A stretch of 38,483 nt of DNA, taken from contig KZ538964.1 of assembly GCA_000934665.2 (NCBI GenBank), positions 1-38,483 on the forward strand. Reading direction: 5' to 3'. Each line of letters opens with the position of its first letter. The first letter of the stretch is position 1. Position numbers and translations under genes: made by a program. This stretch comes from Catajapyx aquilonaris (Eukaryota). The notes under the pieces were generated by a model. That model was not told the DNA's origin. It ran no database searches and saw only the letters and a program-made list of their open reading frames with translations. Below, piece after piece: positions 13,511-38,483 of this stretch.

Positions 13511-13629
13511 TCATTACACCGCAGATGTTTTTACGAGAATTTTGATTGTGATAACGTGATAAACAAGATGTAAGTGCCTTATAAGCAGAGGTGATCAGGT
13601 CACAAATCCAGCTCGGTGCTAGATTCAAG

Positions 13630-14966
13630 ATGAGCTACTTACACACACTACTTATTCTAGTGGCAGTCCATTACTGCCACGGAGTGTCACTGTTTGAACT
13701 CCGCAACACCATCAATGATGACAAGCAGCTTCCTGTTGTGCTTTGGCATGGAATGGGTATGTTGGGAGATGTTGATTGTTTGCTGAATAATAATGTGCTT
13801 GTACTTGTTACAGGGGACTGCTGTTGCAATCCGCTCAGCATGGGTGCAATACAGAAGGTTATTGAACGGGAGATACCTGGTGTGTACGTGAAGTCACTGA
13901 TGATTGGCAGTAATGTGTTTGAAGACACTGAAAATGGATTTTTCGACAATGTCAATGACCAGGTCACAATGGCGTGCCAAATGTTGGCTGCGGATAAGAA
14001 CCTAACTAATGGCTACCATGCGTTGGGCTTCTCGCAGGGTGGTCAGTTCTTGTAAGTAATGACTGTGGCCATTTGTTAGTTAACCAGATTCTTTCCAGCT
14101 TGTGCGAGATATTGGCAAAAAATTTTGACAGCATTGTAGAGCTAATCAACAACATGAAATGCAGGGAGCTTTCAAATTTTTAGACATTTCTTGTAATATT
14201 TTCACTCAAAATGGTCTCTGGATGCGTTACAGGCGAGCTGTGGCACAACGCTGTCCCGACCCCCCAATGGTCAATCTCGTTTCCTTTGGTGGGCAACACC
14301 AAGGTGTGTTTGGATTCCCCCATTGCTTTGCAAGCAGCCATATTGTGTGTGAATACATCAGAAAACTTCTGAGTCTTGGTGCTTACACCAGGTAAGTAAC
14401 ATGTTTGTACCGTAATACAACTGGAAATAATAACCAGTTATACAGTCTTGTGCAGAACCATTTGGTGCAAGCTGAATATTGGCATGATCCACTTAAAGAG
14501 GATACATACAAGGAAAAGAGCATATTCCTGGCTGATATCAACAATGAGAAGGTTGGTACCCATAGTTCTATTGGGCTACAGAACAAGAGTGACTAAGCAA
14601 TTTCTGCAGGTTATGAACACACAGTACAAGGTCAACCTGCAAAAGCTGGCCAACTTCGTGATGGTTCGGTTCAACAACGACACTATGGTGCAGCCTGTTG
14701 ACACAGAATGGTTTGGATATTACAAGCCAGGGCAGGATAAGGACACAATTACATTGCAAGAGTCACAGATTTACACTGAGGTAGGTCGTAAAGGTGCATT
14801 TTCAGCATGACTATTTCTAATGACGCTGTATTTACAGGATTGGCTGGGATTGCAAGCAATGGACAAGGCTGGGAAGCTCCACTTCCTTGGGGTTAATGGC
14901 GATCACCTGCAGTTCTCAGATGAGTGGTTTGTATCTGAGATTATCGACAAGTACCTGAAAGTGTAG
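13630..14966 (+). CDS. Ppt1: Palmitoyl-protein thioesterase 1 (lysosomal alpha/beta hydrolase), 6 coding exons, 309 aa
   Basis: Exons 13630-13756, 13814-14051, 14233-14391, 14446-14551, 14610-14780, 14838-14966 (930 nt, all GT-AG, frame kept). Signal-peptide-like N-terminus, [35 protein letters not shown] (nucleophile Ser), [29 protein letters not shown] (Asp), GDHLQF (His). A possible 5'UTR intron is 13570-13622 (GTAAGT..CTAG). Confidence 0.97.
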
Positions 14967-15268: not shown

Positions 15269-16195
15269 CGAGGAGTGATCAAAAAGTAAGGTCTCCAAGG
15301 CTGTAACCTTTATTCTGTATGAACACAAATGACGAAACTTACAGGGTACATGAGGACAATGGACATCTACTTTTCTACAAAGTTTCCACACCGAAGAACG
15401 CACTTGTCCCATCGCCAGACCAGTTTCTCAATCCCTTCCCAATAGAAAGGGGTGCCCTGTTGACAGCACCAGTCACGCAGCCTTCTTCACCTCATCGTCG
15501 CTTCGGAAATGCTGACCTGCCATGTCTGCTTTCAGGGCTCTGAATAAGTGATAGTCTGTGAGGGCTAGGTCGGGACTATAGGGTGTGTGAGGAAGAACTT
15601 CCCAGTCGTATCCATTCAGCAAAGCCATGGTGTCCCTCGATGTGTGCGGACGGGTGTTGTCGTGGAGAAGGATGACCCCAGCAGTGAGCAATCCTGGAAG
15701 TTGCGACTATCAATTCGGAGCGCAGTGACCCTGGCGAAGTTGCAGAAGGCCATCAGGTGGAAACGACCAGGATTGCTCACTGCTGGGGTCATCCTTCTCC
15801 ACGACAACGCCCGTCCGGACACATCGAGGGACACCTTGGCTTTGCTGAATGGATACGACTGGGAAGTTCTTCCTCACGCACCCTATAGTCCCGACCTAGC
15901 CCTCACAGATTATCACTTATTCAGAGCCCTGAAAACAGACATGGCAGGGCAGCATTTCCGAAGCGACGATGAGGTGAAGAAGGCTGCGTGACTGGTGCTG
16001 TCAACAGGGCACCCCTTTCTATTGGGAAGGGATTGAGAAACTGGTCTGGCGATGGGATAAGTGCGTTCTTCGGTGTGGAAACTATGTAGAAAAGTAGATG
16101 TCCATTGTCCTCATGTACCCTGTAAGTTTCGTCATTTGTGTTCATACGGAATAAAGGTTACAGCCTTGGAGACCTTACTTTTTGATCACTCCTCG
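15269..16195. mobile_element. mariner-derived fold-back MITE (927 bp) made of two inverted 3' ends
   Basis: TA|CGAGGAGTGATCAAAAAGTAAGG TIRs; 429-bp arms (15269-15697, 15767-16195) each encoding the transposase C-terminus HDN.RP.TSR..PYSPDLALTDY (D34D); 69-bp spacer also transposase-derived. Confidence 0.92.
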
Positions 16196-20741: not shown

Positions 20742-22623
20742 TTGATTGATTGATGGTTTAATGGCGCAACAGCAGCAATGGCTATACTGCGCCAAGCACC
20801 TGTGACGTTGTAGGGGAGGGCAGGCAATACCACCCCAACCCCAACGTTAACTAAACCGAAGGTTTATATATGAGGCATTCCACGTCAACTGGACCCCCCT
20901 CCCCGACAAATCTTTTCCGATTTCCACCAAAACCGAGTATGTTGTAGTACACATGGCTGTGAGCAAGGACCTCTTTTTGTTTGTCCCTGCGACGCGTGGT
21001 TGCATATCTACAGGGTGCGAAAGGTGCTGATTTTTACGGATTTTGGCTCCGTCCGCCTTCAGTTGGAAGGCCATAACTTCGGGCGATTGCGACATATCCG
21101 AAATATGATTAATGGAATGGGAGGCTATTGTAACACCCTTTCAGACAGTATGAGTCACGTTCGTAAAGTTTTAAAAATTCAAATTAAAGATTGCGTCCAA
21201 ATGTTTCATTAATTTTTTTCTCAGAAATGGACATTTTTGAAAAATTTTGAATTGCGCTATAAATGAAGCCCGAGATGTTTTCTTGACATTTCCGGAAAAA
21301 AACAAGAGTAGACTTTCGATATTTATTGACAGGAGATATTTTTATAGGGCGCATCCCAGTTGCTCGCCCTGCAACGATTTTGGGTCCAGTGTACAGTGCA
21401 GTCGTTGATTGGGGATTTGTGGATCATTAATAGAGTGACCACTGTGGCATTCGAGTTAAAGCGTTTGGAAACAACCTTGACCCCTCAAAATTCCGAAAAT
21501 CCTTTATTGACACTTGGAAACACCACCTAGCTGCCCTAAGGTCTTGGCAGTTTTGAGAGCAGTCCGGCCTAGCAGCCAAAAATAGTCGGATAAAGAAAAG
21601 GATATGGGCAAGGAATCTGCTCAATGGCACTTGTGCCCCCACAGGTCAGTCACTTGTTTTCGGCGCCATGTGCAGCAAATGAGGGATGGCGGATGGCAGA
21701 TGGGGGGATGCACAGAGGGGGAAGTAGTAAGGCGTAAGTACACTGCACCCAAAATCGTTGCAGGGCGAGCGACTGGGATGAGCTCTATAAAAATATCTCC
21801 TGTCAATAAATATCGAAAGTCTACTCTTGTTTTTTTCCGGAAATGTCAAGAAAACATCTCGGGCTTCATTTATAGCGCAATTCAAAATTTTTCAAAAATG
21901 TCCATTTCTGAGAAAAACATAAATCAAAGTTTTGGACGCCATCTTTAACTCAAAATTTTGATATCTTACAAACACGAGTTCTACTGTCTGAAAGAGAGTT
22001 CAAATAGCTTCCCAACGCATGAATCAAATTTGGAATTTGTAACAATCTCCTGGCAGTTATGGGCCTCCAACTGAGTGCGGACGGAGGCAACATTATTGTA
22101 TGCGCTTTTAGAGTTTTTAAATAACACGAGTCTACTCTCATTTTTTTACGAAAATGTCAATAAAACAATGTAGGGTTCATTTTAAGAGCTATTCAAAATT
22201 TTTTTTAAATGTCCATTTCGGAAAAAAAAATTAATGAAACATTTGGACGCAATCTTTAATTTGAATTTTTAAAACTTTACGAACGTGACTCATACTGTCT
22301 GAAAGGGTGTTACAATAGCCTCCCATTCCATTAATCATATTTCGGATATGTCGCAATCGCCCGAAGTTATGGCCTTCCAACTGAAGGCGGACGGAGCCAA
22401 AATCTGTAAAAATCAGCACCTTTCGCACCCTGTAGATATGCAACCACGCGTCGCAGGGACAAACAAAAAGAGGTCCTTGCTCACAGCCATGTGTACTACA
22501 ACATACTCGGTTTTGGTGGAAATCGGAAAAGATTTGTCGGGGAGGGGGGTCCAGTTGACGTGGAATGCCTCATATACATATATAAATTTTTTTAAAAAAA
22601 GGAGATAATTAATTAATTATCAT
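20742..22623 (-). mobile_element. Short retroposon 3' fragment split by the Sola-like element
   Basis: 12-bp direct repeat TTAAATGGAAGG at 20730-20741 and 22624-22635; minus strand ends in a GGCGCA..TAGCCATTGCTG..TGCGCC hairpin and a (TCAA)3 tail. Confidence 0.55.
20872..22571. mobile_element. Sola2-like non-autonomous fold-back transposon (1.7 kb)
   Basis: GAGG..CCTC termini, 4-bp TSD ATAT; left arm 20872-21393, right arm 21738-22571, near-identical; explains the mirror ORFs 21000-21212 and 22231-22443. Confidence 0.75.
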
Positions 22624-22684: not shown

Positions 22685-25600
22685 TTATTGGGTAGAATCA
22701 AAGGGTTGCAGGTCAAACCACTCAGTTACCGCCTTGTTCAAATTGTATGCAGACAAGTCGATAGCAACCTGAAAATGGCAAAGTTATCAGAACTCTTTTG
22801 TTGTAAAAGAATTTATAAGCAGCACACATTCACTTACCACTCCAAGGGCAGGACTCTTCGCAAAAAATCCTTTCTTGCTCACCACTGTCACCTCCAATTT
22901 GCGCACATTCACCTCAGAAGGCGGCAAGCTGAACTCGAAAGTCTCATCAAATAATGGATTGCAATTATCCTTTATTACGGCAGTTTTGCGCTTGCTCTCC
23001 TTTGATCGGTCTGGTAACAGATACAACTTGGCATATGGGTCAGGAAGGTCCCCGTCGTCACCTTCGGCAAGGTTGCTGCTCAGAAAGTAGAAAAATAAGC
23101 TCGTGGTCACCAAATGACAGGGTTGTTAACTTACGCAGCCTTATGCAAGACAATAACTAGCTGCTGACGCTGGACACTGTACCGAAGGGTGAGTTGCACG
23201 CGTCCCAATCCATGTTGGCCAGCTCCACTGTAACAAAGTGATTATGACTGGGGTATCTTGATATCATGGAAGCATACTGTCATCATTTCAATTCCTTCAG
23301 CATGGGAACACTTTTAAAAATTCAATTTGTGTGACAATTCTTGCTCATCAATGTCCTATCAAATATGGTCAACCTCATAATTTTGTACTTTTGGGTGGTT
23401 CCCCAATTCTTTGGCACCATGCCATGCTAATTTTGCCTAGCTTTGACCTTTGTCAGTGCCCCCCAAAAGAACGTGACACAATTGTTACACAATCTGTACA
23501 AATAGGGTTCCAGCAGCAGCAGTGTTCAAGTATGCTGGTTTCCATGACCTCATCATATGGAACCATTGAAATTTTGCAAATAACATCTGCCTCTCCACAT
23601 GATGAAACCTAAGCACTATGAATCATATGCATGAAATACCTTTACACGACTCACCTCGAAAGTCTTGCAAAAAAACTAAGTCTGTCACAATATGCATTTT
23701 GAATAACAAGGCTATTACTTTAACACTTACAGTGCCTCTACTAGGGGTAGAGAGCAATCATTACTAGGTTTACTCACGTAACATTTCTTTTGCGAATACC
23801 CTCCTCTGTTTCTTCATCGAGTGCCCCAGCAGGTGTCAGAGAGCTCTGGTCACCTGACCGTATTGAAGTGACATCCACATCCTTCTGTTTAGAAGATGGG
23901 CTGTCAGTGGGATTTTCCATGTCACCAGTTCCCTCCATTCCATCTCCCAATGCCTCATCTTCATCTTCCTCATCATCAGATGGGGCTGACGGTTCTACTT
24001 GTTTCAAAATCTGCAATTACATAGTGATGCAGTCAAGCCATTTCAAGTGTCTTCAGTCATAAAAATACCACCTTCAGTTGCACATTGAGAAATAGTCGAG
24101 CATCAGGCCCAGCCCCTTTCAACATCTGTGGCTCTCCCACCAGAGACATGTTTTCTCGTTCAATCAGAGTAGACAGTACAATTTTCAGATGACCCAATTC
24201 AGTACCAGTCTTCCCATCCACTACTCGAATATGTAAGTCGTCTGATTCTGGATTTTTAACCAGGAAGACAAATCCACTTTCCCATACAGGATCTCCAGTT
24301 CGCTGGGCATTTGCAGTCTGTTGTTGTAGGCTTCCAGAACTTCCTCCAATACTCACAGCACAGTAAGGATCTGGCTTTGATTGCTGGCGAGCATTCTGAA
24401 AAATTAAAATATATTTCATGCATGTTGTACTGCTCCTTGAGGCTTTGATCTTTTGATTCATGACTTTCAACTGATTGAAAAAAAAATCATTTTGGTTGCC
24501 CATGTCTGTACTATCAATAGAATAAGGCAAGAAATTGACAAATAGAGACCCTTATTCATCTCTGAAAGCCTACATTAACCCTCTGGCCACTGCATGTGTA
24601 TTATATGTGATACACACTGATAAAAAAATTAAAACCTCCTACTTGAGGGTTACACTAGCAATCTGGCCTTGCTTTGCACAGGCCCACATCTGTTGTGATG
24701 TGACTGATGGATGTTTCTGTTCTTGTGGTCATTAACATTATTATTCTGGGGAGAAAGGGAGGTTGGGGGGACATCTTCTAAGGAGCAGAGAACTTCTGTC
24801 AAAGAAGTAGATAGACAAAAGAAGAATCTTAGGTTGACTGTTGACTTATTGATTTGGTTGGCTGATTATAGATATCCCTCGTCATTTTTCTCCAAGTGCA
24901 CTTCCCTCCCTCCCTCCCTCCCTCCCTCCTCCTCCTCTTTCCCCCGTCCCCTCCTCCCAATTGTATCATTCCAGCCTGTCCTCGTCCACTTCCCTATGGC
25001 CGATGACCCTACCCCTTCCCAGGCAATCCAAGCCAACCATCTTAGGTACAATTGCTCCTGACATTTATCTAAAATATTAGCTGTTAGTACTAGGATGAAT
25101 ATAGATTTTCGGAGCTGAAAACACTTCCAGTAGTCCTTTCTGACCCATTGGTACCTGAGGTAAATGCTTGGACTCATTAACCCTGAGGTCTGGTTTCACA
25201 GCCTCCGTGGTTTTGGCCCACAAAGAGAGAAAACTGTTTCAAAATGTAAAAGCTTTCTGTCATCTCTCTCTGGTTTTTGTTTTTATGCTAACAAAGGGAG
25301 ATTCCCCTCAGAAATCATACTGCAGTGAACATGTAAGGTACGTCTATAGACCACTAGTGTAAACCTGGCAACGCCACTTCAAACATGATGGTTGTAGTTT
25401 GGCTACTTCCTTATGAACTGGCTTCATTACACAATTTTCAGCTGCACAACCAAACATTTCTCAACAACTCTTTCACAAGGATGACTCGCAAAAAAAGCTT
25501 GCACAATTAGATTGGCTACCTATTATTGTAATTAAGTCACAAAATGTAAAATAAATGCAAATCCTGCATATTCCAGCAGTGCCAGTGATCTTTAAATAAG

Positions 25601-28600
25601 GCAAAGCTATCTTGTACAAGGTTCAGTCAAATGAATGTAAGCCATTCCGATGTCACACAAATTGTTCACAGGAGTATGTTTTGCACCATTTAACAATTTG
25701 GTTCCTGGACTTACAACCATGCCTCCATACAGATCTGTGGATCACTTTCCCTCATCCATGCATTTGAATGAACCTTGAAATATAACTAGAAAGACACTAC
25801 TGGATTGTGCAAATGCAAAAGAGATGTAATAATTCCTCATGCACACACTACTCTTACTAGAAAAGTAGGAGTTTGTATAAAACATTGCATCATCATCAAA
25901 ATCATGAAAAAGTCACAGGCTATTCACCAATTCACACTATGCTATGAATTGAAGCAATACATCCCACAATAAAACTCTATGTTTAGTCCATTTGGTTCCA
26001 CATTTTTGAGAAGAAGCATTTGATGAATCACATCAAAATGTTGTCAAGACCAAAGTTACCACATGCTGGGGACATGCATTACAAATCTAACACATACTGC
26101 ATGTCTCAGAACAAAGCTCACATATGCATTGGTAAAAATGTAGCATATGCTCATTTCTACTTGTTCCTGCTACCTCACCTTCCAATGGAGCAGTCACTCG
26201 CAGAACTGTAAAGCCGATTAAATGGGCTTTCGCATGTATGATTCCATGCCAAATTAAGGGCCACTTGTGTGATCAATGTTAAACCCAGAACTTTGTCATT
26301 AATCCAAGATGAATAACATAGGATCAATCACTTGATCTGGGTTTACCATAGATCACGCAACTGGCCCTTAAAGGTGAGCTCACACAGGCAAATATCGGGG
26401 AAAAATTCCCAATGATATGAATGTGAGCTAAATTCTGACAGGCTCAGTATAAAATGCAATGAGAAATTTGCAAGTCACAAACGCAAAAATCCCCCATAAT
26501 GTCCAGTACAGTGCAATAATAAACTTGTGCTTGACAGGTTGCTTGCTTCATGAATTTTCAACAGTGTGAGACCTGATGTAAACTAATGACATGTGTCCTG
26601 GTCATAACATATTTGTGTTTTACCATCTTCAAGAGTCATTATAAAGTAGGTAAGAGAATGGGAGGTCCTTTTTTGTAGTGGCAGATTGAAAGTGATGACA
26701 AAATATTCTTTCACTGGGTTGTCAACTTTGCATGTTGCACTAAAACATGTAGATCTCAAGATTCTTATGCTTAGTTCCACCAACCTTGCTCTCTGTCAGT
26801 TAATCCATTCGATAGCTTGACCCCCAGTGGTTTAATGCTGATTGCACCAACAAAATTACTGATTCGATAGCTCCTAACAGATTATTAGGACACGTTAAAA
26901 GGGCTCCTAACGATCCATTAGGCGCTATCGGATCAGTAATTTCAGTTGGTGCAATTGGGCATTAATTCCTCAATCGACTCAATGTATGTTCCCAAGCTCG
27001 CGAGCACTGGAGTTTTCAAGTGAATGCTCGAATTCGAGAATTTTTTGAGCGATAAGTCAAGGTCAAATGAGCTGCGACAATTGACTTCTGGCTCTCTCAC
27101 CATGACCGATTTTCGCAAGCTTGTGAACACACATTAAACATGGGTTCTCAAGCTCACAAGAACGCATATTTTATAGCTAATAGTGTAATACCGAAGCAGT
27201 GGTGGCGGAGGGGATATGGTATCCGACTGCTAATCGGGAGGTCCTGGGTTCGAATCCCGGTGCCGGCAACTCTAACCGTGGTTTTCTGTGGTTTCCCACG
27301 GTTCCTCCAGGAGAATTCCGGAGTTGTTCCTAAACTAATAGGCCACAGCCGCCTCCTTCCTTTCCTATCCTATCCCAAAAAGCGCAGTAAAAACGAAACG
27401 AAGAGTTCCAGTAAAAAAAAAAATCCCCCCTAAAGAGCCGCTGGCTGATAACGGGGTATGAATTATTATTATAGCTAATAGTGTAATTCGATAATTTTTT
27501 CACGTGAGCGAGAAAGCCGCGGACAAAACGGGATGCGAGAATAGGTTTCTCGCTCTCCCTCACACTTTCGCTACTACCAATAGATGAACAGATACAGAGC
27601 TAGATGATATGTTTGCCACTAACCTGCTTAAAGTGAAGACCAGAACATTACTTTTGGCCATTCGAACAAGTCGAGCAGTCTCATTGGTGCCAACAGAAGT
27701 GGGATTTCTGTTCACACCAGTCACGTGGTAGCCCGAATACCCCTTCTTCCGCGCCTCCACCCGATAAATAGGTCTACCTGCTGACCCGCCAAATTTGTCC
27801 CAATAACTCTTAAATGCTTCATGGACCTGGGCAAAAGACAGTACAGGAAATGACAGGTGGCATGTGGGCTACCCTACCCTTGCATTTACGGATATATTTC
27901 GTGCCACTTTCGTCCATATTGGGAGGGAGGTGCGTACCAATTCATCCAGTGCCCTAGTTTGTGAATTTCAAAAATCGAATTTACGCCACTAAAACTGTTT
28001 TTTGATGGAAATGTTGCACTTTGTTGGCCTGTCATTCCAGGATAAATTTCTCAAATGTACTAAGATAATATCACACTGTTCCACAAAAAATTCACTGAAG
28101 CAGCACCTACTAAATATCAAAAATTCTGTCTGTAACAATAAAAGGCTTTGCTAAGCCTGCAATCCAATAGAAAGGTACCAGGGCAATACCTTTGGTCTCC
28201 GACCAAGCCAATCTTTGGGAGCCTTGGCAGACTGACAGAAGAAGAGAGCAAATTCCTCAAAAGTAGCTGTTAAGTAGCAAATTAATACTAATTCTGCCAA
28301 CCACAACTCTGCAGCAGTTCCTGGTGGAACATTTTTTGAGATCACGGCCATTAACGTTGCAAAGTATTGGACACTGAGTCACAACCAGCAAATAAGAAAA
28401 GCATTGTAGCAGTTGATCTTGTGACCAAAATTACACACACAGCTTCAAACTGAAGTCACAAAGATCCTCTGATTAAAACTACAAAATCCACATGTTTTAA
28501 TTTATATGTATATGTCCAAAAACTAACGATGCCCAACTTCAAAATGACATCCCAATCATTTGTAGTAACATAATGCATGAGTTTTGAATACCTCAGTTAA

Positions 28601-29319
28601 AAATTGTGCAAGTAGAATGCAATACAACACCATTGCAGTTCATCATCATGCCTTGACATGATGATCCAACTTTTTACTTAGGCCAAAGGACAACTGCCAG
28701 GATCAGTTACTCCATGAACCCCAATAATTTTTAGTTAAGGTTGTTCCTAATAATGTTTCACCAAAAAGTGAAACCCAGTTTCTTCCTATTAATTCTGGTA
28801 TAATCAACATCTGTAGTTGAAAGACCTGACTGCAATTTTTTAATTAAAATGTATTAGGTGTGTTCAAATGAAACAAAGTGAGGCAATATCTCAGGAGCTA
28901 TTTGTCTCAGCTGTGTGCTAGTGGTATCTCTGAGTAGGCCCTCGCATGGTTAATTTTCATGCAGAGTAGTTAGTAGTCAGTGTTCAGGGGAGGCGGAGTG
29001 GTGCTGCAGTAACGTATGCGCCCACGGATGTTAAGGTCCCGGGTTCAATCCCAACCCGGGGACACCCCCTTCATCTTGTACAGAGTTCAGGGTCACCTCT
29101 GGCTTCGTCTCGGGTGGTATTTCCACAGACTACACCACCCGGGGGAGTTCACTAAAAATGGCCACAGCGTCAGATGCACTGCACCTTGCACATCCCCTCC
29201 TGTCATCCTGCCCGTGGGCCTGAGTGCTTCAACTATAATAGGTTCCAATATTGTATAATAGTTCAAAATAAAGGTCTGTGTGATATACCCCCATTTGTGG
29301 GTGAAAGCACTATCCCAGG

Positions 29320-29378
<59 letters not shown>

Positions 29379-32300
29379 GTCAGTATGCATGCAGTGGACA
29401 GGGAAGCATTTTATGCAAGTCTATCAGGGCTATGGATTCGTCTAAACATGTATGGCTCGCAATCATCCTTTTTCCTCATCATGGAAGGAATTGCACCAGT
29501 GGACATTGTCCATTGGATGCACAAGGTACATGGAAATGTCTGTTTCAACCCCAAGACTCTCTTCAAAAGGTGTAGGAAATTTCTGTCCAGACATGTGTGC
29601 ATGGAGGACCTTTCGAGAGAACATTTCCTTAGTGGATTTCTGCACTAAGGTGTCCATCAAGGTGTTGTGGTTGAAGCAGGCTCTCCCACACACCCTTGGC
29701 ATCCAATAAACAATGTCCACTGGTGCAGTTCCTTCCTTGATGAGGAAAAAGGATGATGACGAGTTGTGCCTGTTTGGACGAATGCATAGCCCTAGGACAC
29801 TTGTATGAAATGCTCTTCTGCCCACTAAATGCATACTCACTACTCACTACTCTGCATGAAAATTAGCCATGCTAGTGCCTACTCAGAGATATCACTAGCA
29901 CTCAGCTGAGACAAATAGCTCCTGACAAGTGAGATATTGCCTCACTTTTGTTTCATTTGAACACACCACATACAAAGGAAGCTTTTATAGTGTATATGTT
30001 AGGCTCAAACCCCAAAAACGGCCATTTGGTGAAAAAAACGTCCATACTGCAGAATGCTCTATGCCAAACCATTTATTCGGCAGAATGGATGGAGCATTCT
30101 GCAGAATGCTCTATGTCAAACCAGAACAGAATGGACGTTTTAGTGAAACAGCCAGACCCAGAAATGCTCTTTTTAAAAAGGCTAGAACGCTTTCCTGGGC
30201 TAATCTTAAACGGCAGGACGCCAATTTCGTGTCGGGATGGCTGGTAAAGAAGAGGCCCCCGCCGCCCAACCCCGACCGCGTTGTTAAGGTGCGGATAAAC
30301 TGTAGCCTAGCCGATTTTTTAAATAACACAATTAGTAGGAAAAGGCTGTGTTTCACTTTTTCCTCTAACTTTCTTGAGAACAGCCTATGAAAATTATTGT
30401 TGCACACAACAAAACTGCTCCTGGAAGGTGTCCTCGCATTTCCACGCATTTTGTAGGTTTGTTCTCACTGTCAGCTAGCACAAATTTTCCTGAATACTGA
30501 GCTTGAAAAACACTATGCATGTAATAACCCTGCCACAAATAACTAGGCACTGTACACAGCAGCACCATGTATAAACATCCAGAATAATTATTTTAAAGAT
30601 TTAATGGCAGAAACAATGCAAACTATAAAGGGGCAGTCCAGAAAGTGTCATTCAGATGATTTACTTTTGTAAACCCCTCTCCAGATTCCTTCAAGTCACA
30701 CACATGCCATGACAGATGTTGACTCTGGCACAGCAGAAAGTATGCCAATAAATATTTCAGGCTGGCATGGACCATCTTACTGGTTTTTTCCCTACTAAAT
30801 ATTTGTCCAACAAAATGCAAATGTGTCTGCCATTACAATACTAAACTCCAGGACACTTCTCCAGAATCAGTTGCATGCTCTCAAAGTGCAAAGTCTCAAA
30901 GAATTAAAAGAGAGCGACACACACACATAAAATTCAAATGCCCTGGAAACAACAAAATAATACAAAAATGTCCACTTACTGGCAGATTCTTGGCAGAGTC
31001 AATAAAGACAACCACTGCAGCTGAATGAATACCTCGGCCCTGAACCTCTTGAAGAGCCAGTGGGAGGTCTGCTGGATTTGGAGACAAATTGAACCATGTC
31101 AGCTCCAAATGCACTAGTCCTGACTTCACATCTTCCAGTGGCACCCACTAAAATATTGATTTGTTATACTTCCACATGCAGAATGCTATATTACCGCTTC
31201 CCTTACCAGATCTTGTTGGCCTTTCTTCACAGCACTATATATGTCGACACTCGCTCTGCAACAGGATAACAAATGGTACATTTTAAAACATTCGCACATC
31301 TGTGCCACAACTACAACGATGCTCTCCAAAACGATGCAGCAAAAACAGTTTCACAAAAGGGTAATCAGCACACACAAGGAAGAACTAAGATGCATAAGGT
31401 CAGTACAAGTACTTGGGAAATTTTCAAAGCTGCCTGAACACCCAGCACAAGCAAAAATGCATACATAAAGCCAAAGTACAAAAGAAAAATTGCATGAGGC
31501 AAGAGACAAGCAAGAAAACCACATTGTTAGAGAGATCCCAAGAAGGATTATTGTTCAAGGTTGATGTGGATCCAGGTCAGCGCTTAGAAGTAATATACCG
31601 CTAACTACTACTCAGAAACTGCTATTAACATGTCATATTTACAGATTCTTGATCCCAAATAACCATCCAGAATCTGCATCAACTGCAAATTACAAGCACA
31701 AAGGTTTAACATGAGTCAGATGTGCACTACTCCTTTGTTTCTTTGCACCTACTGTATGCACTGGTGTTGAGTCGAATATGAGGCTGAACAAGAGACTGAA
31801 CAAGAAATGCTTCAAGAATCTTGTCATTGACATTTCAAATACTGCTAACAACAGGATCAACAGGTGTTAATAAAAACTGTTGGAGAGGGGCACCTGAAAA
31901 ACTCTCAATCTCATAGCAAATCTAATGGGTCAATCTATATTATTATAATAATATGTAGTGATATCTGATCTACCCTGCCTGTCTGAATCTGAGTTCATTT
32001 TGCTTCAACAGAACTACTAATATGATACATGGATGAGCATTACAGGAAAGAGGAACACCCAGCTGAGTTAGGATCCAAAACTTGTAAATCTGCTGAAAAC
32101 AAAATCTTGAACCAAGCTTAAGACAGCCAACACTCTCCTATTCACTCCTTAGTTGTACTAAATAGATATACAGTATATGACATGGTGGCAGTGGCGATAT
32201 TGCTTTGTTCACCCCTGTCAGTACTCACGAGACACCTACTTGACCTCTAGCCTGACCTTAGAATTAGGATTTTTTGACAATTTCTTTTTCACATTGCAGA

Positions 32301-34358
32301 TCTAGAGAAACCAAGTGAGAAGTAGGACAATAACAAAAATATTTCTTTGTATCTTAGTACAATAGATACATTTAAAATTAATACCGTGGTGCCTCGTTCT
32401 TCGAACTTAATTTGTTCCAGGAGGATGTTTGAACTCTGAATATTGTTCAAAGTCCAAATCAATATTTTTCATAAGATATTATGGAAAATTAATTAATCTG
32501 TTCCCAAATCCTAGAGCTTAGACAATACACATTTTGATAAACTTTAACAGCCAATACACTAATTTAATAAGGCAACCGTTACAATATCAAATGCTCTTAA
32601 TAATAAATGAAAACATAACAATAAATGAAATACATCAACACTGTAGAACAAAATGAAAATAGCATTTCTGCACCAGTGAAAAGTGATGTTCCGTGTGGAG
32701 AGGAACTTGGAGAGGAAGAGAAAGGATTACTGTTTGAAAGGGGAGTCATCTTCCATTTTATAATAAGTTAACTCAATACATCAAAAATTAAGAAAAAAAA
32801 AATCACTGAAAACACACAAGCGTAACGCAAGAGATGCTTTTACAGTGACAAAGAGAGATGACTTGGATGCACAACAGATGGCATTCACCCTGTGAGCGAT
32901 TTTTTTCACTGAGCGAGTAGTTCAAACTTAGAAGCATCATTCGAACTCCCGATCAAATTTCTCTCAAAATTAGTGTTTGAACTCTAGAACGTTTGAAGTT
33001 AGGAGCGTTCGAAGTATGAGGCTCCACGGTATAAACATCATTACCAGTGAAATTGAATAGTGCTTATCGGAGGCTCACTGCATTGATCTTACATCTAGTA
33101 ATTGCACTTGTATGAAGTCATTATGATAATTGGCATTTTCAGGGGTTGCAAATCCCTTATCCAATATTCCAAAAACCAAAATCTTCCAAAATTGGAAAGT
33201 TTTTTGAATGCTGACATGATGTGCCGCAAATGAAAAATTCCCCATGAGTATAACATGACTCCGAGTCATTACCTGTATCTGTACGTATACAAAATTATGT
33301 CAAATTTAACCTCCAGGGTTAATGACTAACCTACACTATGAAATGTACAGTTGATTCCAGATGTAACAGCCTCTGCTTTGTAGTAAACCTGAAAGGCTGG
33401 CCCCACCATACCTCCATATATGGCATGTGTATTTGGCTATAACAAATCGCGAAAATTGCTGAGTGATTTCCGTGGTCCCTTGAAGTCTGTTATATCCAGA
33501 GGCAACTGTATATGGATTTCGTGTTCAGGCATTTATCTCATCCCAAAGCTGTCCAACTTTATAGATGAAAACAAACAAATATTCCAAATAAAAAAATAAA
33601 TATGAAATCCGAAGCACTTCTGGTCCCACACATTCGGATAAATGATTCACAACCTGTTAAATGATAAGAAACAGTGTCAAAAATCACATTTTATGTCACA
33701 ATTTGTTCAATCACTTTCTTGACTCCCATCAACATTCAACAGTATCAATCACACCATAAATAATATGATTTGCAGCATACATCTTACTTTACATAAGGAA
33801 TAATTGACAGCTGTACATTCTAATGTTTCAGTAAATTAGAGGAGCAAAATAGATGACTCTTTTTGCTAATGTTCTCCTAAGATTCCAAAATGCCATTCCA
33901 TATTTAAATAAGTGATATTCTATTGTACTTTATGCTAATGCCCCCAACCATCATTATTTTTATACAACGTGTGTACCTGAGTTAGTGCCACCTCTCCAAC
34001 TTCAATTTTTCTCTAAGCACAACTACAATTTATAGTCAATTAAGAATTATGTCCTACTTTAATGTGGTAGTTTCTGGTTACACTGTACCTCCCCAAATTG
34101 TCTCCTTCTCGTGCAGGATCGTAGTCCAGAACCTCAATCAACACCTCAGTTTCTTGGGCGTACACAAACATCTGCGATACAAAGGATTTCTTTTGGAACA
34201 TACAGGTTGCAACAAGCAAGTAATCTCAAGCAAGAACTCATATCCCTATTCAGTCGGTGGAGGATGGAATACCTTCCCAGAAAGTCATCCTTGTTCCCCT
34301 TGTCTTCATCCATCAACCTCAACTTCAAAGATTGGCACTCAGGTTCCTCCACCAAAAA
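22685..34358 (-). CDS. Esyt2: Extended synaptotagmin (Esyt2-like ER-plasma membrane tether), 3' portion: end of C2A, C2B, acidic linker, C2C
   Basis: Minus-strand exons 34358-34273 (FLVEEPECQSLKLRLMDEDKGNKDDFLGR), 31255-31207, 31147-30980 (WVPLEDVKSGLVHLELTW..VFIDSAKNLP), 24395-24072 (KPDPYC..PVWESGFVFLVKNPE), 24010-23778, 23227-23135 (GLGRVQLTLRYSVQRQQL), 23075-22838 (PDPYAKLYLLPDRSKESKRKTAVIKDNCNP), 22768-22685 (EWFDLQP..stop); all GT-AG with consistent phase; upstream SMP/TM exons not found in the window. Confidence 0.93.
23655..23681 (-). CDS. Esyt2: Candidate 27-nt Esyt2 microexon (LSFFARLS)
   Basis: gacag|A CTT AGT TTT TTT GCA AGA CTT TCG AG|gtgagt; phase 2-2 matches the host intron; no stop. 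Confidence 0.6.
26258..26367. mobile_element. Harbinger-like MITE
   Basis: GGGCCA.TTG.GTGATC / GATCACGCAACTGGCCC TIRs, TTAA on both sides. Confidence 0.7.
26836..26961. mobile_element. Harbinger-like palindromic MITE
   Basis: ATTGCACCAAC..AAATTACTGAT.CGATAGC.CCTAA pairs with its reverse complement; TTAA flanks. Confidence 0.65.
26981..27135. mobile_element. Small MITE
   Basis: AATGTATGTTCCCAAGCTCGCGA / TCGCAAGCTTGTGAACACACATT imperfect TIRs. Confidence 0.55.
27190..27468 (+). mobile_element. tRNA-derived SINE (family A)
   Basis: Box A-like TGGTGGCGGAGGGG, box B GGTTCGAATCC (27247-27257), anticodon-like arm CCGA-CTGCTAA-TCGG, (TAT)n tail, 19-bp TSD TTATAGCTAATAGTGTAAT. Confidence 0.88.
28190..28231 (-). 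CDS. Esyt2: Candidate 42-nt Esyt2 cassette exon in C2B (SAKAPKDWLGRRPK)
   Basis: tgctctcttcttctgtcag|TCT..AAG|gtattg; phase 0-0 matches the host intron; open frame. Confidence 0.6.
28854..29970. mobile_element. mariner-derived fold-back MITE made of two inverted 5' ends, interrupted by a SINE
   Basis: TA flanks, GGTGTGTTCAAATGAAACAAA TIRs; both arms encode decayed N-terminal HTH (FLI.EG.APVDIV.WM..V.G..CFN). Confidence 0.8.
28987..29378 (+). mobile_element. tRNA-derived SINE (family B) with long (TAT)n tail
   Basis: Box B GGTTCAATCCC; homologous to 37320-37667; imperfect TSD GTCAGTGTTCA / GTCAGTATGCA; (TAT)n at ~29320-29378. Confidence 0.85.
32384..33029. mobile_element. Tigger/pogo-like non-autonomous element
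   Basis: TA|CCGTGGTGCCTCGTTCTTCGAAC ... GTTCGAAGTATGAGGCTCCACGG|TA. Confidence 0.75.
33140..33656. mobile_element. Tigger-like (Tigger4/MER46-resembling) non-autonomous element
   Basis: CAGGGGTTGCAAATCCCTTATCC left end, CACTTCTGGTCCCACACATTCGGATAAATGATTCACAACCTG right end; family resemblance from recall. Confidence 0.6.
33348..33508. mobile_element. Nested Tigger-like MITE
   Basis: TA|CAGTTGATTCCAGATGTAACAG ... CTGTTATATCCAGAGGCAACTG|TA. Confidence 0.65.
34089..34171 (-). CDS. Esyt2: Alternative (mutually exclusive) Esyt2 C2A exon MFVYAQETEVLIEVLDYDPAREGDNLGR
   Basis: cgcag|ATG..GGG AG|gtacag, 83 nt, phase 0-2 like exon 34358-34273, same D-x-D-x5-D-x-LGR motif. Confidence 0.85.
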
Positions 34359-34631
34359 CTGAAGCGTGGGTTAGTTTGTTAACTCATCACCTTATTGACC
34401 AAAGATCCAACACAGGCACTTTACAATACCACCAAGTGAGATTAGTTTCAAAGGTAAGAAAGTTCTACAATGAACCATATGAGCCCCAATAACTTCCATT
34501 TCAGTATCATTATCCTCCCCCTGTGTGCCATGGCACAATGTGAGTCTAACACCAAATGGAAAATATTTACAACCTCACCTGCAACAAAACAAGGAGCATA
34601 CAAGAGTGGATCAAATTAATAATGAGACAAG

Positions 34632-34862
34632 TCGTCTGGCAACCTAACCTCCAGGGGGACTGCACATGATCCTTTTTCAGACATTGCACTTGCACCTGTG
34701 TCTCCTCCCAAGAAATCCCCCATCCCTACCTCATGTCCTTTCATCCTTGCACCGGAGTGGAAGAAAAATACAGAAAATTGATGGAAAATGGTGGTATTCC
34801 ACACCCCCTTAGAGGGCCTCTGGCCCTATCACAGGGTAATGTTTAAAAAAAGAAAAAAAAAA
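34632..34862 (+). mobile_element. Degenerate 3' part of SINE family C
   Basis: GTCTGGCAACCT.AACCTCC.GGGGGACT.CACATG matches ~37851-37886; ends with the shared tail hairpin and an A-run. Confidence 0.55.
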
Positions 34863-34993
34863 GTGAAATAATTAAATTGTTATTGGCAGTTTTGGAAGCT
34901 GCTCTCGAGTGATAGCTGTGACCTCATATGGGATTCAAAAGTTCAATCAGTTTGCCAATAAGGAAGTGTCAGTGATACAGTCGCTGTGTAAAG

Positions 34994-35180
34994 ATGATGG
35001 TGCACCTTCAGTCATGCACTGAGGAGGATAAGGGAGCTGTTACCTGGTTTTGGGCAAAGAACAGACAAAACCCATTGAAATGTATCGGAAAATATAAGCA
35101 CTACGCGGATCTCCCATGTATCTTGCAGTCACTTGCATGTGAGCGGTATAAAATATTTCAGAAAGATGAATGTAGTCCAT
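34994..35180 (+). mobile_element. Decayed mariner transposase N-terminus
   Basis: MMVHLQSCTEEDKGAVTWFWAK.. resembles the mariner N-terminal E(Q)RAVI.FLWA motif; frame disrupted, no TIR pair found. Confidence 0.4.
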
Positions 35181-36071
35181 CAGGCCAGTGCAATGGAGCC
35201 ATAACACTGGAATTTTTTTACATCAGTCACAGGCCTGAGATTGCAAGGGATATGGTATCTATACTATTAATATCCTACTGTGATGGTGATTCCTCCCGCT
35301 GTGTACAGCCTACAGCATTGGAAGTGATGTCAAATTTTAGCCGGCGTGTCCTATATTTGCAATAAATTTTTGTTTTTTGGAAATAGTGACCAGGGAATTT
35401 ATAAAACGCAAAAAACGCAGACTGCCTAAAAAAACCAACCACCATGGAGTTCCCATAAACGCCGTTCCGGTCGCGGGCGCTACCTCCGCACCGTCTTACT
35501 TCGGTACTTCGCCGTCGGATGTCTCCGCCTGGTCTGCGTCTCTCTCTATCCCTCTCTCCCTACTCCACTTTCGCAATTTTGCCTAATTTTTTTGCCTCAT
35601 TTTGGCAAGTTGGTGCCTAGGATCTCTATATTGTGCTTCTATTCGCCAATACATTTAGATGTCTTTTGTCCCTTATGTGCACAAAAACATAATGAGTGCT
35701 CTTTAATCCATCTTGGTGAGTCTGAATGGGCACCGCTATCTTTAAGCAAATTCTGCCTGACTCAGACTACACCTATGGGCAAACTGTCTGAAGTTATGAG
35801 AACCATATGAGTCTGCAACTGTCCCTGTCCCAGGCATCCCAAAAGGTGGGTTTTTAAACAATTTCATGGCACAATTCTCGTTTTCATTTGATCAAGTATA
35901 TCCTGAGAACAAAACTTCGATTTAGGCTACGTTGTATATCACTCATTTTCCTTGGCAAGGCATCCTTGACAAGTGACTATACTCTTCAGATGGGCCATGA
36001 GTGGAAGGGAAAACATTGCATATATAATTTGTGGGCAATTTTTGCAACCCTATCCCCCCAGTCCAAATATA

Positions 36072-36650
36072 CAGGGTGGATCAGAAGTTGGTACCTATTT
36101 TTATTTCCGCATAACTTTCCAACGAGTACACCTACGTAAGTCAAACCTGATTCAAAATGTGCGGGAATTCATAAGAATTTATCTGGGTGACACTTTGCTA
36201 CTGTGGCACTGCTAGCGAGCGTAGCTTTACACTTCTTCCGCGGTGGCACTGTTAGAGGGCGCATGTTGACACTTCTTGCCATGGTGGCGCTGATAACGGG
36301 GGCAGCTGTGAACAAAATGTCGGACCACTTGTCTGTGACATACAAATGGGGTCAGAGTGTTCAGGGGCTGGCCTGTGATATCACAGAGAGCGAGAGAGGT
36401 GATCCGACATTTTGTTCACAGCTGCCTCCGTTATCAGCGCCACCACGGCAAAGTGTCAACCTGCGCCTGCTAACAGCGCCACCGCGGAAGTGTAAAGCTG
36501 CGCTCACTAGCAGTGCCACAGTAGCAAAGTGTCATCCAGATAAATTCTTAGAAATTCCCGCACATTTTGAATCCTGTTTGACTTCTGTAGGTGCACTCGT
36601 TGGAAAGTTATTTGGAAATAAAAATAGGTACCGACTTCTGATCCACCCTG
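36072..36650. mobile_element. Tc1/mariner-type MITE with ~255-bp arms
   Basis: TA|CAGGGTGGATCAGAAGT.GGTACCTATTTTTATTTCC TIRs, TA on both sides; explains ORF 36203-36766. Confidence 0.88.
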
Positions 36651-36673
36651 TAGTACATAATCTCTCTTTCCCC

Positions 36674-36692
36674 NNNNNNNNNNNNNNNNNNN
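36674..36692. other. Assembly gap (N run)
   Basis: 19 Ns between a C-run and poly-A. Confidence 0.95.
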
Positions 36693-37319
36693 AAAAAAAA
36701 AAAAAAAAACAATACAATTTTTATTGGTGCTGTTTGGATTTTGGGCAATATTATGATGAGAATTGAAGCTTGATTAGTGTCTTTCATTTCTGAATATCGA
36801 TAATAATGTCATAATTGGCAAATTCTCTCCTTCCCTTATCTTACAGTGTTGTCAAACAGTCAAACTTCTCACACTATCAACAAGCCTCATAATCTAAATT
36901 GTCATTATTCAACAAGGACAATTGTGATGCTCCACCAGAAAAAATAAATAATATGCACATCACATAAAGGGGGATACACAAAAAGAATTTGCGGCAGCGG
37001 CAAGCGGCGCGTTTAACGCTTCACCGTGCAGTTTACATAAAATTTTTGCCGTGTACACAGGGCTTGGGGCGCGACAAATATTCCGCGTGTCAAGGACATG
37101 CCAGCCAGAATGAGCTGCGCACTATTTGTCGCGTGACATTTATTTGTGAAACGGGCTTAACTCTCGGGAGCACTGCTCAAGTAAAAAGCTACTCACTACA
37201 TTAGAAACCCATAGCCTAAGATGATTATGGATTTGTGTATAACCACAAGACAACCATTTGTTGCTACTGCACTACATCTGCATATAATTTCAATTACTTG
37301 TTAAGTCTAAGCCTGACAA

Positions 37320-37667
37320 TAATAATAATAATAATATAATAATAATAATTGGTTGGGTAATGCTTTCGCCCTATCAGGGTTTATCGCATGGACCTTTATT
37401 TGTTGTGTACATTGGAACCTTTATACGTATCGCCCGGGCCCACGGGCAGGATGACAGGAGGGGATGTGCAAGTGCAGTGCATCTGACGTGTGGCCATTTT
37501 TAGTGAGCTCCCCCGGGTGGTTTAGTCTGTAGGAAATACCACCCGAGACGAAGCCAGAGGTGACCGACCTCTGCACGAGATGAAGGGGGTGTCCCCGGGC
37601 TGGGATCGAACCCGGGACCTTAACATCCGTGGGTGCGCACGTTACCGCGGCGCCACTCCGTCTCCCT
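37320..37667 (-). mobile_element. tRNA-derived SINE (family B), copy 2
   Basis: Box A TGGCGCCGCGG, box B GGTTCGATCCC, (TAT)n tail, 15-bp TSD GTCTAAGCCTGACAA. Confidence 0.9.
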
Positions 37668-37723
37668 GTCTAAGCCTGACAACACTAGTAAGAGTGGGTC
37701 TCCAGTCATCAATATCTTATATC

Positions 37724-38076
37724 GGGGAGGTGTGGTGGCCGTGATGGTAACGTCTCGGCTTGCTGAGTGAAAGGCCCCAGGTTCGATCCCCGCCTGGGGA
37801 ACTTTCCTTTCACCTGCGTCGGGAGGGTCTCTGACCTGCACCAAGGAGGTGTCTGGCAACCTTAACCTCCTGGGGGACTACACATGGCCCAAAAGCCATA
37901 GGACAATGCACCTGCACAAGTGTCCCCTCCCCAACAATCCCTTTCCCTACCCTATATCCTAGTATTCCTTGCACGGAGATTGAAGTTAATTGAAAAACTG
38001 TATGGTGGTCTGCCACCCCCCAAAAGGCCCATAGAGGGCCATCAAGGGGTACGTAAAATAAAATAAAATAAAATAA
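37724..38076 (+). mobile_element. tRNA-derived SINE (family C)
   Basis: Box A TGGCCGTGATGG, box B GGTTCGATCCC, (TAAAA)n tail, 10-bp TSD ATCTTATATC. Confidence 0.88.
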
Positions 38077-38116
38077 ATCTTATATCAAGACTAGATATAA
38101 GGCAATTATGCTCTAA

Positions 38117-38241
38117 GGGCCGGTTTCACCGAGCTCAGTATATGATAAAACCAGGGTATTTCTCAAAATCCCTATCTATTTGTATGGATTTTCTTAAAGA
38201 AACCTGGTTTTATCATATACCAAGCTCGGTGAAACCGGCCC
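38117..38241 (-). mobile_element. PIF/Harbinger MITE, 125 bp, copy 2
   Basis: Inverted near-identical copy of 795-919, TAA on both sides. Confidence 0.85.
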
Positions 38242-38379
38242 TAAAAAGCATCAAGACATACTGTATACATGCAAATATTTTCCATATATTAACATACCCT
38301 ATGTGTTCTCACATATTCCCCAAAAACAACAAGGTGCAGCGCAAAGTGAGCATGGTCTAAGTAAAAAGTTTGTACTGTA

Positions 38380-38483
38380 CGAGGGAGGTTCAATAATTTA
38401 TCTACCTGAGTATCAAAATGAACACCTTTATTGAAATCCTCCTAATCATTTTTTAATATAGTCCCCCTTGAGCTCTACACACT
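38380..38483 (-). mobile_element. 3' end of a mariner element, cut by the window edge
   Basis: TA|CGAGGGAGGTTCAATAA TIR; minus strand reads CVELKGDYIKK-stop, a typical mariner C-terminus. Confidence 0.75.

What the first reader, a model, noticed from the sequence alone, without database searches (positions are those of the whole stretch)
34089..34358. Tandem mutually exclusive exons swap the Ca2+/lipid-binding loop 3 of the Esyt2 C2A domain
Seen: two exons 101 nt apart, both phase 0-2, encode equivalent segments (..LMDEDKGNKDDFLGR and ..VLDYDPAREGDNLGR). The second is absent from the ORF track. Joining both shifts frame and meets TGA within 11 codons; skipping both also shifts frame. Established: D-x-D-x5-D in loop 3 supplies three C2 calcium ligands, and both exons keep them. 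From recall, Drosophila Esyt2 has alternative exons at this position. Inference: the isoforms differ in loop charge (KGNK vs PARE) and so in Ca2+ or phospholipid sensitivity at ER-plasma membrane contacts. Further variants may lie beyond the window.
Basis: partly seen in the sequence, partly recalled or inferred. Interest (0 to 1): 0.72.

Follow-up and report, generated by a model that had tools for sequence, protein, structure and literature searches.

The report
Known alternative exon pair in Esyt2
Two neighbouring exons offer alternative versions of the calcium-binding loop of an extended synaptotagmin, an arrangement already described for arthropod Esyt2 genes, so this is a real but ordinary new example.

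Summary
On the minus strand, exon A (34358-34273, 86 nt) and exon B (34171-34089, 83 nt) lie 101 nt apart. Both have AG/GT borders and the same phase. Both encode the D-x-D-x5-D..LG(R) segment of the first C2 domain of an extended synaptotagmin. Joining both gives TGA after 11 codons; skipping both gives a stop at codon 7.

A profile of 79 homologous segments picks out only these two among 1999 six-frame ORFs of the window (E 5.7e-11 and 5.3e-4; next 0.45). None of 4000 neutral-decay simulants of exon A kept exon B's score.

The arrangement is published. Craxton 2010 (PMC2823689, text and Additional file 43) shows mutually exclusive exons at this position in Daphnia and insect Esyt2. NCBI isoforms of Ceratina and Cherax differ only here. 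A tree places the window's gene in Pancrustacea, next to insects.

Verdict: real, a new member of a known kind, low interest.

The parts
34273..34358 (-). Variant exon A of the C2A loop-3 exon pair (86 nt, phase 0 to 2). This is the canonical-looking version, ending ..MDEDKGNKDDFLG(R).
   Evidence: Searches give the borders cag| and |gtattc. Pfam C2 scores 23.2 bits for its ORF. My own profile gives 39.1 bits, E 5.7e-11. It aligns to residues 83-112 of human E-Syt2 chain 4npj_A, but the E-value of 0.45 is not significant. The closest stored segments are from horseshoe crabs and ticks, at 11-12 of 14 residues.
34172..34272 (-). The 101-nt intron between the two variant exons.
   Evidence: GT..AG borders are read directly. 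No excess of inverted repeats was found around it.
34089..34171 (-). Variant exon B (83 nt, phase 0 to 2). This is the divergent version, ending ..VLDYDPAREGDNLG(R).
   Evidence: Searches give the borders cag| and |gtacag. My own profile gives 16.9 bits, E 5.3e-4. None of 4000 neutral simulants reached that score. All 17 PDB matches at E up to 10 are synaptotagmin C2 domains, each not significant on its own (E 0.18-1.2). There is no Pfam match.
31207..31255 (-). Next constitutive exon (49 nt). Its first base completes the split R codon of either variant. It encodes ASVDIYSAVKKGQQDL.
   Evidence: tblastn with beetle E-Syt2 P0018 gives 47% identity.
30980..31147 (-). Constitutive exon (168 nt) covering the end of C2A and the start of C2B (WVPLEDVKSG...SAKNLP).
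   Evidence: 45-53% identity to insect and tick E-Syt2.
24072..24395 (-). C2B exon (324 nt, 108 aa).
   Evidence: Pfam C2, 41.1 bits. One search gives 322 proteins at E up to 0.001.
23134..23229 (-). Exon at the start of C2C. Borders are approximate.
   Evidence: tblastn, 56-75% identity to arthropod E-Syt2.
22835..23077 (-). Main C2C exon. The 5' border is approximate. A last coding exon follows, down to about 22700.
   Evidence: Pfam C2 scores 57.2 bits. 26 of 66 candidates scored E up to 0.001, of which 24 are E-Syt-like.

Best explanation
The window holds the 3' two-thirds of the single Esyt2-type extended synaptotagmin gene of a pancrustacean arthropod, on the minus strand. The exon that encodes the second half of the Ca2+-binding region of the first C2 domain (two strands and the D-x-D-x5-D loop) is present as two tandem copies. 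They arose by exon duplication and are used one at a time.

Exclusivity is enforced at least by the reading frame, which is shown here: each exon is 2 mod 3, so including both or neither produces an early stop. Such transcripts would give a truncated protein or be degraded (inferred).

Exon A gives a canonical loop, with lysines at the two positions where synaptotagmin-1 C2A has R233 and K236 (that numbering is recalled). Exon B keeps the three aspartates but has Pro and Glu at those two positions, with an Arg between them.

The inferred consequence is two C2A versions with different apparent Ca2+ and anionic-lipid affinity. In E-Syts the C2A domain is the Ca2+-binding one, and it is proposed to hold the SMP lipid-transfer domain in check until Ca2+ binds. 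The two versions would therefore set different Ca2+ thresholds for lipid transfer at ER-plasma membrane contacts. This last step is inference only.
For: Anatomy: borders, lengths, phase and the 101-nt intron come.

Homology of both exons to the same segment: my own profile scores them at E 5.7e-11 and 5.3e-4, and nothing else in the window's 1999 ORFs scores below E 0.45.

Constraint on exon B: A and B share only 34 of 83 bases (gapless, 3'-anchored) and 6 of 28 residues. In 4000 simulated neutral decays of exon A to that identity, 895 kept an open frame and none scored 16.9 bits or more; the maximum was 4.4.

Same arrangement in relatives: Craxton 2010. Ceratina calcarata isoforms X1/X2/X3 (P0012, P0008, P0010) and Eufriesea P0001/P0002 differ only in this segment. 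Cherax quadricarinatus X1/X2/X3 (P0076, P0355, P0354) likewise. D. melanogaster Esyt2 is annotated with a cluster of 3 such exons.

Placement: the window's protein falls inside Arthropoda (SH-aLRT 100) and Pancrustacea (98), as sister to the sampled insects (81).

Role of C2A: 'only C2A capable of binding Ca2+' (PMC8093936, passage, citing Xu 2014). C2A is proposed as autoinhibitory for SMP, with release by Ca2+ (review PMC7889955, passage, citing Bian 2018).
Against: There is no transcript evidence for either exon in this organism.

Pfam's C2 model does not detect exon B, and its PDB matches are individually not significant.

Exon B has no close counterpart among the stored E-Syt proteins. 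Its best hit in any stored protein was E 0.002, in a long multi-C2 protein (P0031, 3909 aa). Its best hit in a named E-Syt, the ticks, was E 3. Conservation of exon B in other species is therefore unshown.

The upstream constitutive exon is outside the window, so its phase is taken from the literature.

The net charge of the nine-residue loop is the same in both versions.

No competing RNA structure was detectable: 7 inverted 11-mer pairs against 7.3 +/- 4.3 in 100 shuffles.
Confidence: 0.8

Rival explanations
1. Exon B is a dead duplicate, a pseudo-exon that is no longer spliced into mRNA. The gene makes only the exon A form.
For: No RNA evidence was available. Exon B is not found by Pfam C2 and has no close match among the stored E-Syt proteins. 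Exon A is the version that resembles the single form of ticks and horseshoe crabs.
Against: At the observed divergence from exon A, a neutral copy should have lost the profile signal: 0 of 4000 simulants reached 16.9 bits, and 3105 of 4000 had a stop. Exon B keeps AG and GT borders, the open frame, a length of 2 mod 3, all three aspartates and the closing LG(R) in register. Relatives use 2 or 3 versions at this position.
Confidence: 0.12
2. Exon B is used, but not in strict alternation with exon A. For example, it might be used only with another promoter or upstream exon. Or it might act as a frame-breaking 'poison' exon added to A to lower protein output.
For: The 101-nt intron is long enough to be spliced in arthropods (established knowledge), so A+B transcripts are mechanically possible. 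They would carry a TGA after 11 codons. No RNA structure that would enforce exclusivity was found.
Against: A poison exon needs no conserved C2 motif, yet exon B keeps one. In the annotated relatives the versions replace each other and the rest of the protein is unchanged.
Confidence: 0.06
3. The resemblance of exon B to a C2 loop is a chance ORF in an intron.
For: An 83-nt frame stays open by chance about one time in four (895 of 4000). There is no Pfam match.
Against: The profile gives E 5.3e-4 among 1999 ORFs, with the next best at 0.45. The ORF lies 101 nt from its homologue, in the same phase, with AG/GT borders. All 17 weak PDB matches are synaptotagmin C2 domains at the equivalent loop.
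Confidence: 0.02

Closest known systems
Mutually exclusive exon cluster in the first C2 domain of arthropod Esyt2 (Craxton 2010, BMC Genomics 11:37, PMC2823689, Additional file 43)
   Same: The same gene family and the same exon. It begins right after the ..W.CE exon and ends ..LG(R), with a phase 0 intron before and a phase 2 intron after. The copies are tandem, of nearly equal length, and one copy is used at a time. The taxon range also fits: Daphnia to Drosophila, and the window's gene falls in Pancrustacea.
   Different: Only two versions are present in the window, as in Daphnia pulex, against three in the listed insects and in Cherax. Neither version has the long ..PGVQ.. loop of the insect and Daphnia 'var2' class. 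Exon B matches none of the published classes closely when compared by eye or by blastp-short against stored proteins. A third version further upstream, outside the window, cannot be excluded.
Drosophila melanogaster Esyt2 (CG6643), annotated cluster of three mutually exclusive exons (Ivanov and Pervouchine 2018, PMC6071210; four predicted isoforms per Kikuma et al. 2017 preprint, 10.1101/141333)
   Same: Orthologous gene and position.
   Different: It has three versions. Kikuma et al. studied one isoform (Esyt2-RB) as the major one, and the passages I saw make no functional comparison of the versions.
Mutually exclusive C2B exons of invertebrate synaptotagmin-1 (C. elegans snt-1, Capitella, Lottia; Craxton 2010)
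   Same: Tandem alternative exons that recode part of a Ca2+-binding C2 domain.
   Different: A different gene and a different C2 domain. [quoted passage not shown]
Docking-site/selector RNA-structure control of exon choice (Dscam, 14-3-3zeta, Mhc, MRP, srp)
   Same: It governs tandem homologous exon clusters in arthropods (PMC6071210).
   Different: No excess of complementary segments was found around these exons in this single sequence. With two exons that are each 2 mod 3, the frame rule alone can explain productive exclusivity.

Membership tests
Extended synaptotagmin (E-Syt2-type) | Three C2 domains in the order C2A, C2B, C2C | tested here: met
   Pfam C2 matches the exon A ORF (23.2 bits), the C2B exon (41.1 bits) and the C2C exon (57.2 bits) in that order on the minus strand. 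tblastn with full-length E-Syt2 proteins is collinear.
Extended synaptotagmin (E-Syt2-type) | SMP lipid-transfer domain and N-terminal membrane hairpin | not testable with these tools
   These parts lie upstream of exon A, outside the window. No upstream C2A exon (DPY motif) was found in 34400-38483, and no whole genome is held.
Extended synaptotagmin (E-Syt2-type) | Groups with named E-Syt2 orthologues rather than other C2 proteins | tested here: met
   24 of the 26 significant hits to the C2C exon are E-Syt-like, and the named ones are 'extended synaptotagmin' entries. The tree places the gene inside the arthropod E-Syt2 clade (SH-aLRT 100) and in Pancrustacea (98).
Arthropod Esyt2 C2A mutually exclusive exon cluster | Two or more tandem homologous exons at the position between the ..W.CE exon and the exon that starts A/T-S/T-I/V.. 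| tested here: met
   compared with Additional file 43 and with the Ceratina and Cherax isoforms.
Arthropod Esyt2 C2A mutually exclusive exon cluster | Same intron phases (0 before, 2 after) and near-equal lengths | tested here: met
   The 3' phase 2 and the lengths of 86 and 83 nt are shown directly. The 5' phase 0 follows from the open frame of both exons, but the upstream exon itself was not seen.
Arthropod Esyt2 C2A mutually exclusive exon cluster | Including both or neither exon breaks the frame | tested here: met
   TGA after 11 codons when both are joined, and a stop at codon 7 when both are skipped.
Arthropod Esyt2 C2A mutually exclusive exon cluster | Each version is found in mature mRNA, one at a time | not testable with these tools
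The one related metagenome locus, L001, is a continuous ORF with an A-like segment only.
RNA-structure-controlled exon clusters (docking site and selectors) | Competing complementary intronic segments | tested here: inconclusive
   Six inverted pairs were listed. The count of 11-mer pairs with at most 1 mismatch is 7, against 7.3 +/- 4.3 in 100 mononucleotide shuffles. No relatives were available for covariation.

The most novel reading that the evidence does not exclude
Exon B may not be the orthologue of any of the three insect versions. It could be a separate, lineage-specific duplicate of the canonical exon. It has kept the three Ca2+-ligand aspartates while replacing the two loop lysines (at the positions of Syt1 R233 and K236) with Pro and Glu. 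This would give a natural low-affinity or differently gated C2A switch for E-Syt lipid transfer. It would also mean that this exon of Esyt2 has been duplicated repeatedly and independently within Pancrustacea.
Probability: 0.25. Interest if true: 0.35.

Novelty: new member of a known kind. Interest (0 to 1): 0.18.

Why it matters
It matters little beyond annotation. Gene models for this species should carry two Esyt2 isoforms that differ in the C2A loop-3 exon, and should not join both exons. The Timema monikensis model P0178 appears to make that error.

The wider question is what the alternative C2A loops of arthropod Esyt2 do. It seems untested in the literature I could search. A species with only two, very different versions could be a simple system for studying it. 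Still, the phenomenon has been in print since 2010.

Tried and rejected
Whole genome: none is held for this window.

First protein search, with exon 31147-30980: 16 candidates, none significant.

Exhaustive search with the C2B exon: 322 hits at E up to 0.001. The listed hits aligning over most of the exon were 35-51% identical (up to 62% over a 58-residue stretch), and no close relative was found.

Organism: the PPT1 exon gave 52-71% identity to fish, molluscs, cnidarians and others alike. That is no help for taxonomy. E-Syt identity is 38-45% to insects, ticks, Cherax and Strigamia alike. Only the tree gave a placement, and it is a quick tree in which the window fills 37% of the columns.

Metagenome scan with the exon A ORF: one locus, L001, at 57% identity. 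It is a continuous ORF without introns and has only an A-like segment, so it gives no test of exon B.

A third version in the window: none was found.

Pfam on exon B: no match. PDB sequence search: only weak matches.

RNA structure: inverted repeats are at chance level.

Earlier findings of this scan: three look-ups, nothing found.

Papers: Xu et al. 2014 (PMC3946263) is not held. PMC12857021 has nothing on Esyt2 splicing in the passages shown.

Not done: comparing exons A and B in a script with the sequences in Craxton's supplement, because those are not stored sequences. That comparison was made by eye only.
Full report
WHAT IS THERE

Read on the minus strand, 34358-34273 (86 nt) and 34171-34089 (83 nt) are two exon-like segments separated by 101 nt. 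Each is preceded by ..cag and followed by gt. Both are open in the same phase and both leave two bases over. The first base of the next exon (31255-31207) completes the split codon to Arg.

- Exon A reads FLVEEPECQSLKLRLMDEDKGNKDDFLG(R).
- Exon B reads MFVYAQETEVLIEVLDYDPAREGDNLG(R).

Joining A to B gives TGA after 11 codons. Leaving both out gives a stop at the seventh codon of the next exon. The second result assumes a phase 0 end of the upstream exon, which lies outside the window.

THE GENE

Downstream on the same strand lie these exons:
- 31147-30980, the end of C2A and the start of C2B
- 24395-24072, C2B
- a linker exon near 24010
- 23229-23134 and about 23077-22835, C2C
- a last coding exon ending near 22700

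Pfam finds C2 in the exon A ORF, the C2B exon and the C2C exon.

A search with the C2C exon gave 26 significant proteins among 66 candidates. Of these, 24 are E-Syt-like. The named ones are 'extended synaptotagmin' entries of Hymenoptera, a beetle and ticks, at 53-59% identity.

No upstream C2A exon is in the window. The intron before exon A is therefore longer than 4.1 kb, and the SMP domain cannot be checked.

IS EXON B MORE THAN AN OPEN FRAME?

I cut the homologous segment out of the stored E-Syt-like proteins, which gave 82 distinct segments. Three came from faulty gene models and were dropped. A profile HMM built from the remaining 79 was run against all 1999 six-frame ORFs of 12 residues or more in the window.
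- The exon A ORF scored 39.1 bits (E 5.7e-11).
- The exon B ORF scored 16.9 bits (E 5.3e-4).
- The next best was 7.5 bits (E 0.45).
The window therefore holds two versions and no third.

A and B are very different: 34 of 83 bases in a gapless 3'-anchored comparison, and 6 of 28 residues. As a null model for a dead copy, I mutated exon A at random to that identity 4000 times. Of these, 895 kept an open frame, and none scored 16.9 bits or more; the maximum was 4.4. Keeping the frame, both splice borders, the three aspartates and the closing LG(R) at this divergence points to selection on the peptide.

Evidence on the other side:
- Pfam's general C2 model does not see exon B, alone or with its flanks.
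- Its matches to solved structures are all synaptotagmin C2 domains at the equivalent loop (17 of 17), but each is not significant on its own (E 0.18-1.2).
- Exon A aligns to residues 83-112 of human E-Syt2 chain 4npj_A, also at a non-significant E of 0.45.

IT IS A KNOWN ARRANGEMENT

[quoted passage not shown] I read its Additional file 43 whole. It aligns the versions together with the exons on either side:
- Two versions in Daphnia pulex.
- Three each in Tribolium, Nasonia, Apis, Anopheles and twelve Drosophila species.
- The variable exon starts right after ..W.CE and ends ..LG(R/K), with a phase 0 intron before and a phase 2 intron after.
This is the exon duplicated in the window. Ivanov and Pervouchine 2018 (PMC6071210, passage) list D. 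melanogaster Esyt2 among genes with a cluster of three such exons.

The stored proteins show the same thing:
- Of the 21 proteins that carry the anchor motif, nine have a ..DDPLGR version, six a ..GDESLGR version and two a long ..YDDFLGR version. One beetle and three tick entries have versions of their own.
- Ceratina calcarata isoforms X1, X2 and X3, and two Eufriesea entries, are identical on both sides and differ only here.
- Cherax quadricarinatus X1, X2 and X3 do the same.
- By contrast, all listed tick entries that cover the region have one version (14 of 15 in one cluster, 5 of 5 in another). So do both horseshoe crabs (3 of 3 and 8 of 8). That single version is the closest stored match of exon A, at 11-12 of 14 residues.
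- Exon B has no close match in the stored set. Its best hit in a named E-Syt, the ticks, is E 3.

WHOSE GENE?

Neither the neighbouring PPT1 gene nor plain identity tells. I built a tree of the constitutive exons with 26 E-Syt proteins. It was a quick IQ-TREE run with SH-aLRT support only, and the window fills 37% of the kept columns. It places the window inside Arthropoda (100) and inside Pancrustacea with a barnacle, a crayfish and insects (98), as sister to the ten named insects and one unnamed Logan protein (P0176) (81). No Daphnia, springtail or other early hexapod protein was in the set. The taxon therefore lies within the range where the exon cluster is already known.

HOW IT LIKELY WORKS

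Inferred: transcripts with both or neither exon are lost or give truncated protein. The 101-nt intron is long enough for arthropod splicing, so steric exclusion is unlikely (established knowledge). I found no sign of competing RNA pairings. Six inverted pairs were listed, and their number is at chance level: 7 against 7.3 +/- 4.3, with 52 of 100 shuffles as high. One sequence cannot settle that point.

On the protein side, the exon covers the acidic loop with three of the Ca2+ ligands. The passages I saw say that only C2A of E-Syt2 binds Ca2+ (PMC8093936, citing Xu 2014, which I could not read). They also say that C2A is proposed to inhibit the SMP domain until Ca2+ binds (PMC7889955, citing Bian 2018, not read).

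Setting the two loops against the synaptotagmin-1 C2A loop D-F-D-R-F-S-K-H-D (seen; residue numbers recalled):
- Exon A has Lys at both basic positions (R233 and K236).
- Exon B has Pro and Glu there, with an Arg between them.
Over the nine-residue loop both are -3, and over the whole exon the values are -3 against -5. A difference in Ca2+ or lipid affinity is plausible but untested. I found no paper that compares the versions in any species. Kikuma et al. used the single isoform Esyt2-RB.

WHAT COULD NOT BE DONE

- Transcript evidence.
- Conservation of exon B in close relatives. None was found. The single metagenome locus L001 is an intron-free ORF with an A-like segment only.

VERDICT

The feature is a further example of a published arthropod Esyt2 exon cluster.

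Confidence that exon B is a functional alternative to exon A is 0.8. The main rival, a dead duplicate, is at about 0.12.

Novelty: a new member of a known kind. Interest is low.

Noticed in passing
window 13585-14807 (+): A neighbouring gene on the other strand, a palmitoyl-protein thioesterase 1 (PPT1). Four ORF pieces cover Pfam Palm_thioest positions 1-231 of 254. The first exon is 52-71% identical to PPT1 of fish, molluscs, cnidarians and horseshoe crabs.
   Followed up: partly
window 20867-21325 and 22118-22576: A large inverted repeat, 95% identical over 460 nt, lies just downstream of the 3' end of the E-Syt gene. A further related copy lies at 21738-22093. It looks like a foldback or MITE-like element.
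   Followed up: no
window 28988-29352 and 37318-37666; also 27196-27268: Two copies of a repeat (84% over 367 nt) sit in opposite orientation in the introns on either side of the exon A to exon 30980 block. Rfam calls a tRNA at 27196-27268 (+) at 32 bits (gathering score 29), but ARAGORN does not call it. This fits tRNA-derived SINEs. Whether the inverted copies pair in the pre-mRNA was not examined.
   Followed up: no
protein P0178 (Timema monikensis, 856 aa): This public gene model contains two versions of the variable C2A segment one after the other (..DADDVADDENLGS... then ..FDKDPGEDDFLGR). The mutually exclusive exons seem to have been annotated as consecutive exons. Three tick models (P0327, P0328, P0341) carry extra residues before the segment that look like retained intron.
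   Followed up: no
L001 928-1929 (+): A metagenome contig with a continuous 334-residue ORF of an E-Syt-like protein, with no introns across the C2A-C2B region. It is either a transcript or an intron-poor organism. It is 57% identical to exon A and has a single loop version.
   Followed up: partly
window 15476-15706 (-): By eye, this ORF reads like the C-terminal part of a Tc1/mariner-type transposase (recalled resemblance only). Pfam gave no family at E up to 0.01.
   Followed up: no
window 5767, 7053, 11389, 36674-36692: Three single N positions and one run of 19 N, probably an assembly gap, in the intron upstream of exon A.
   Followed up: no
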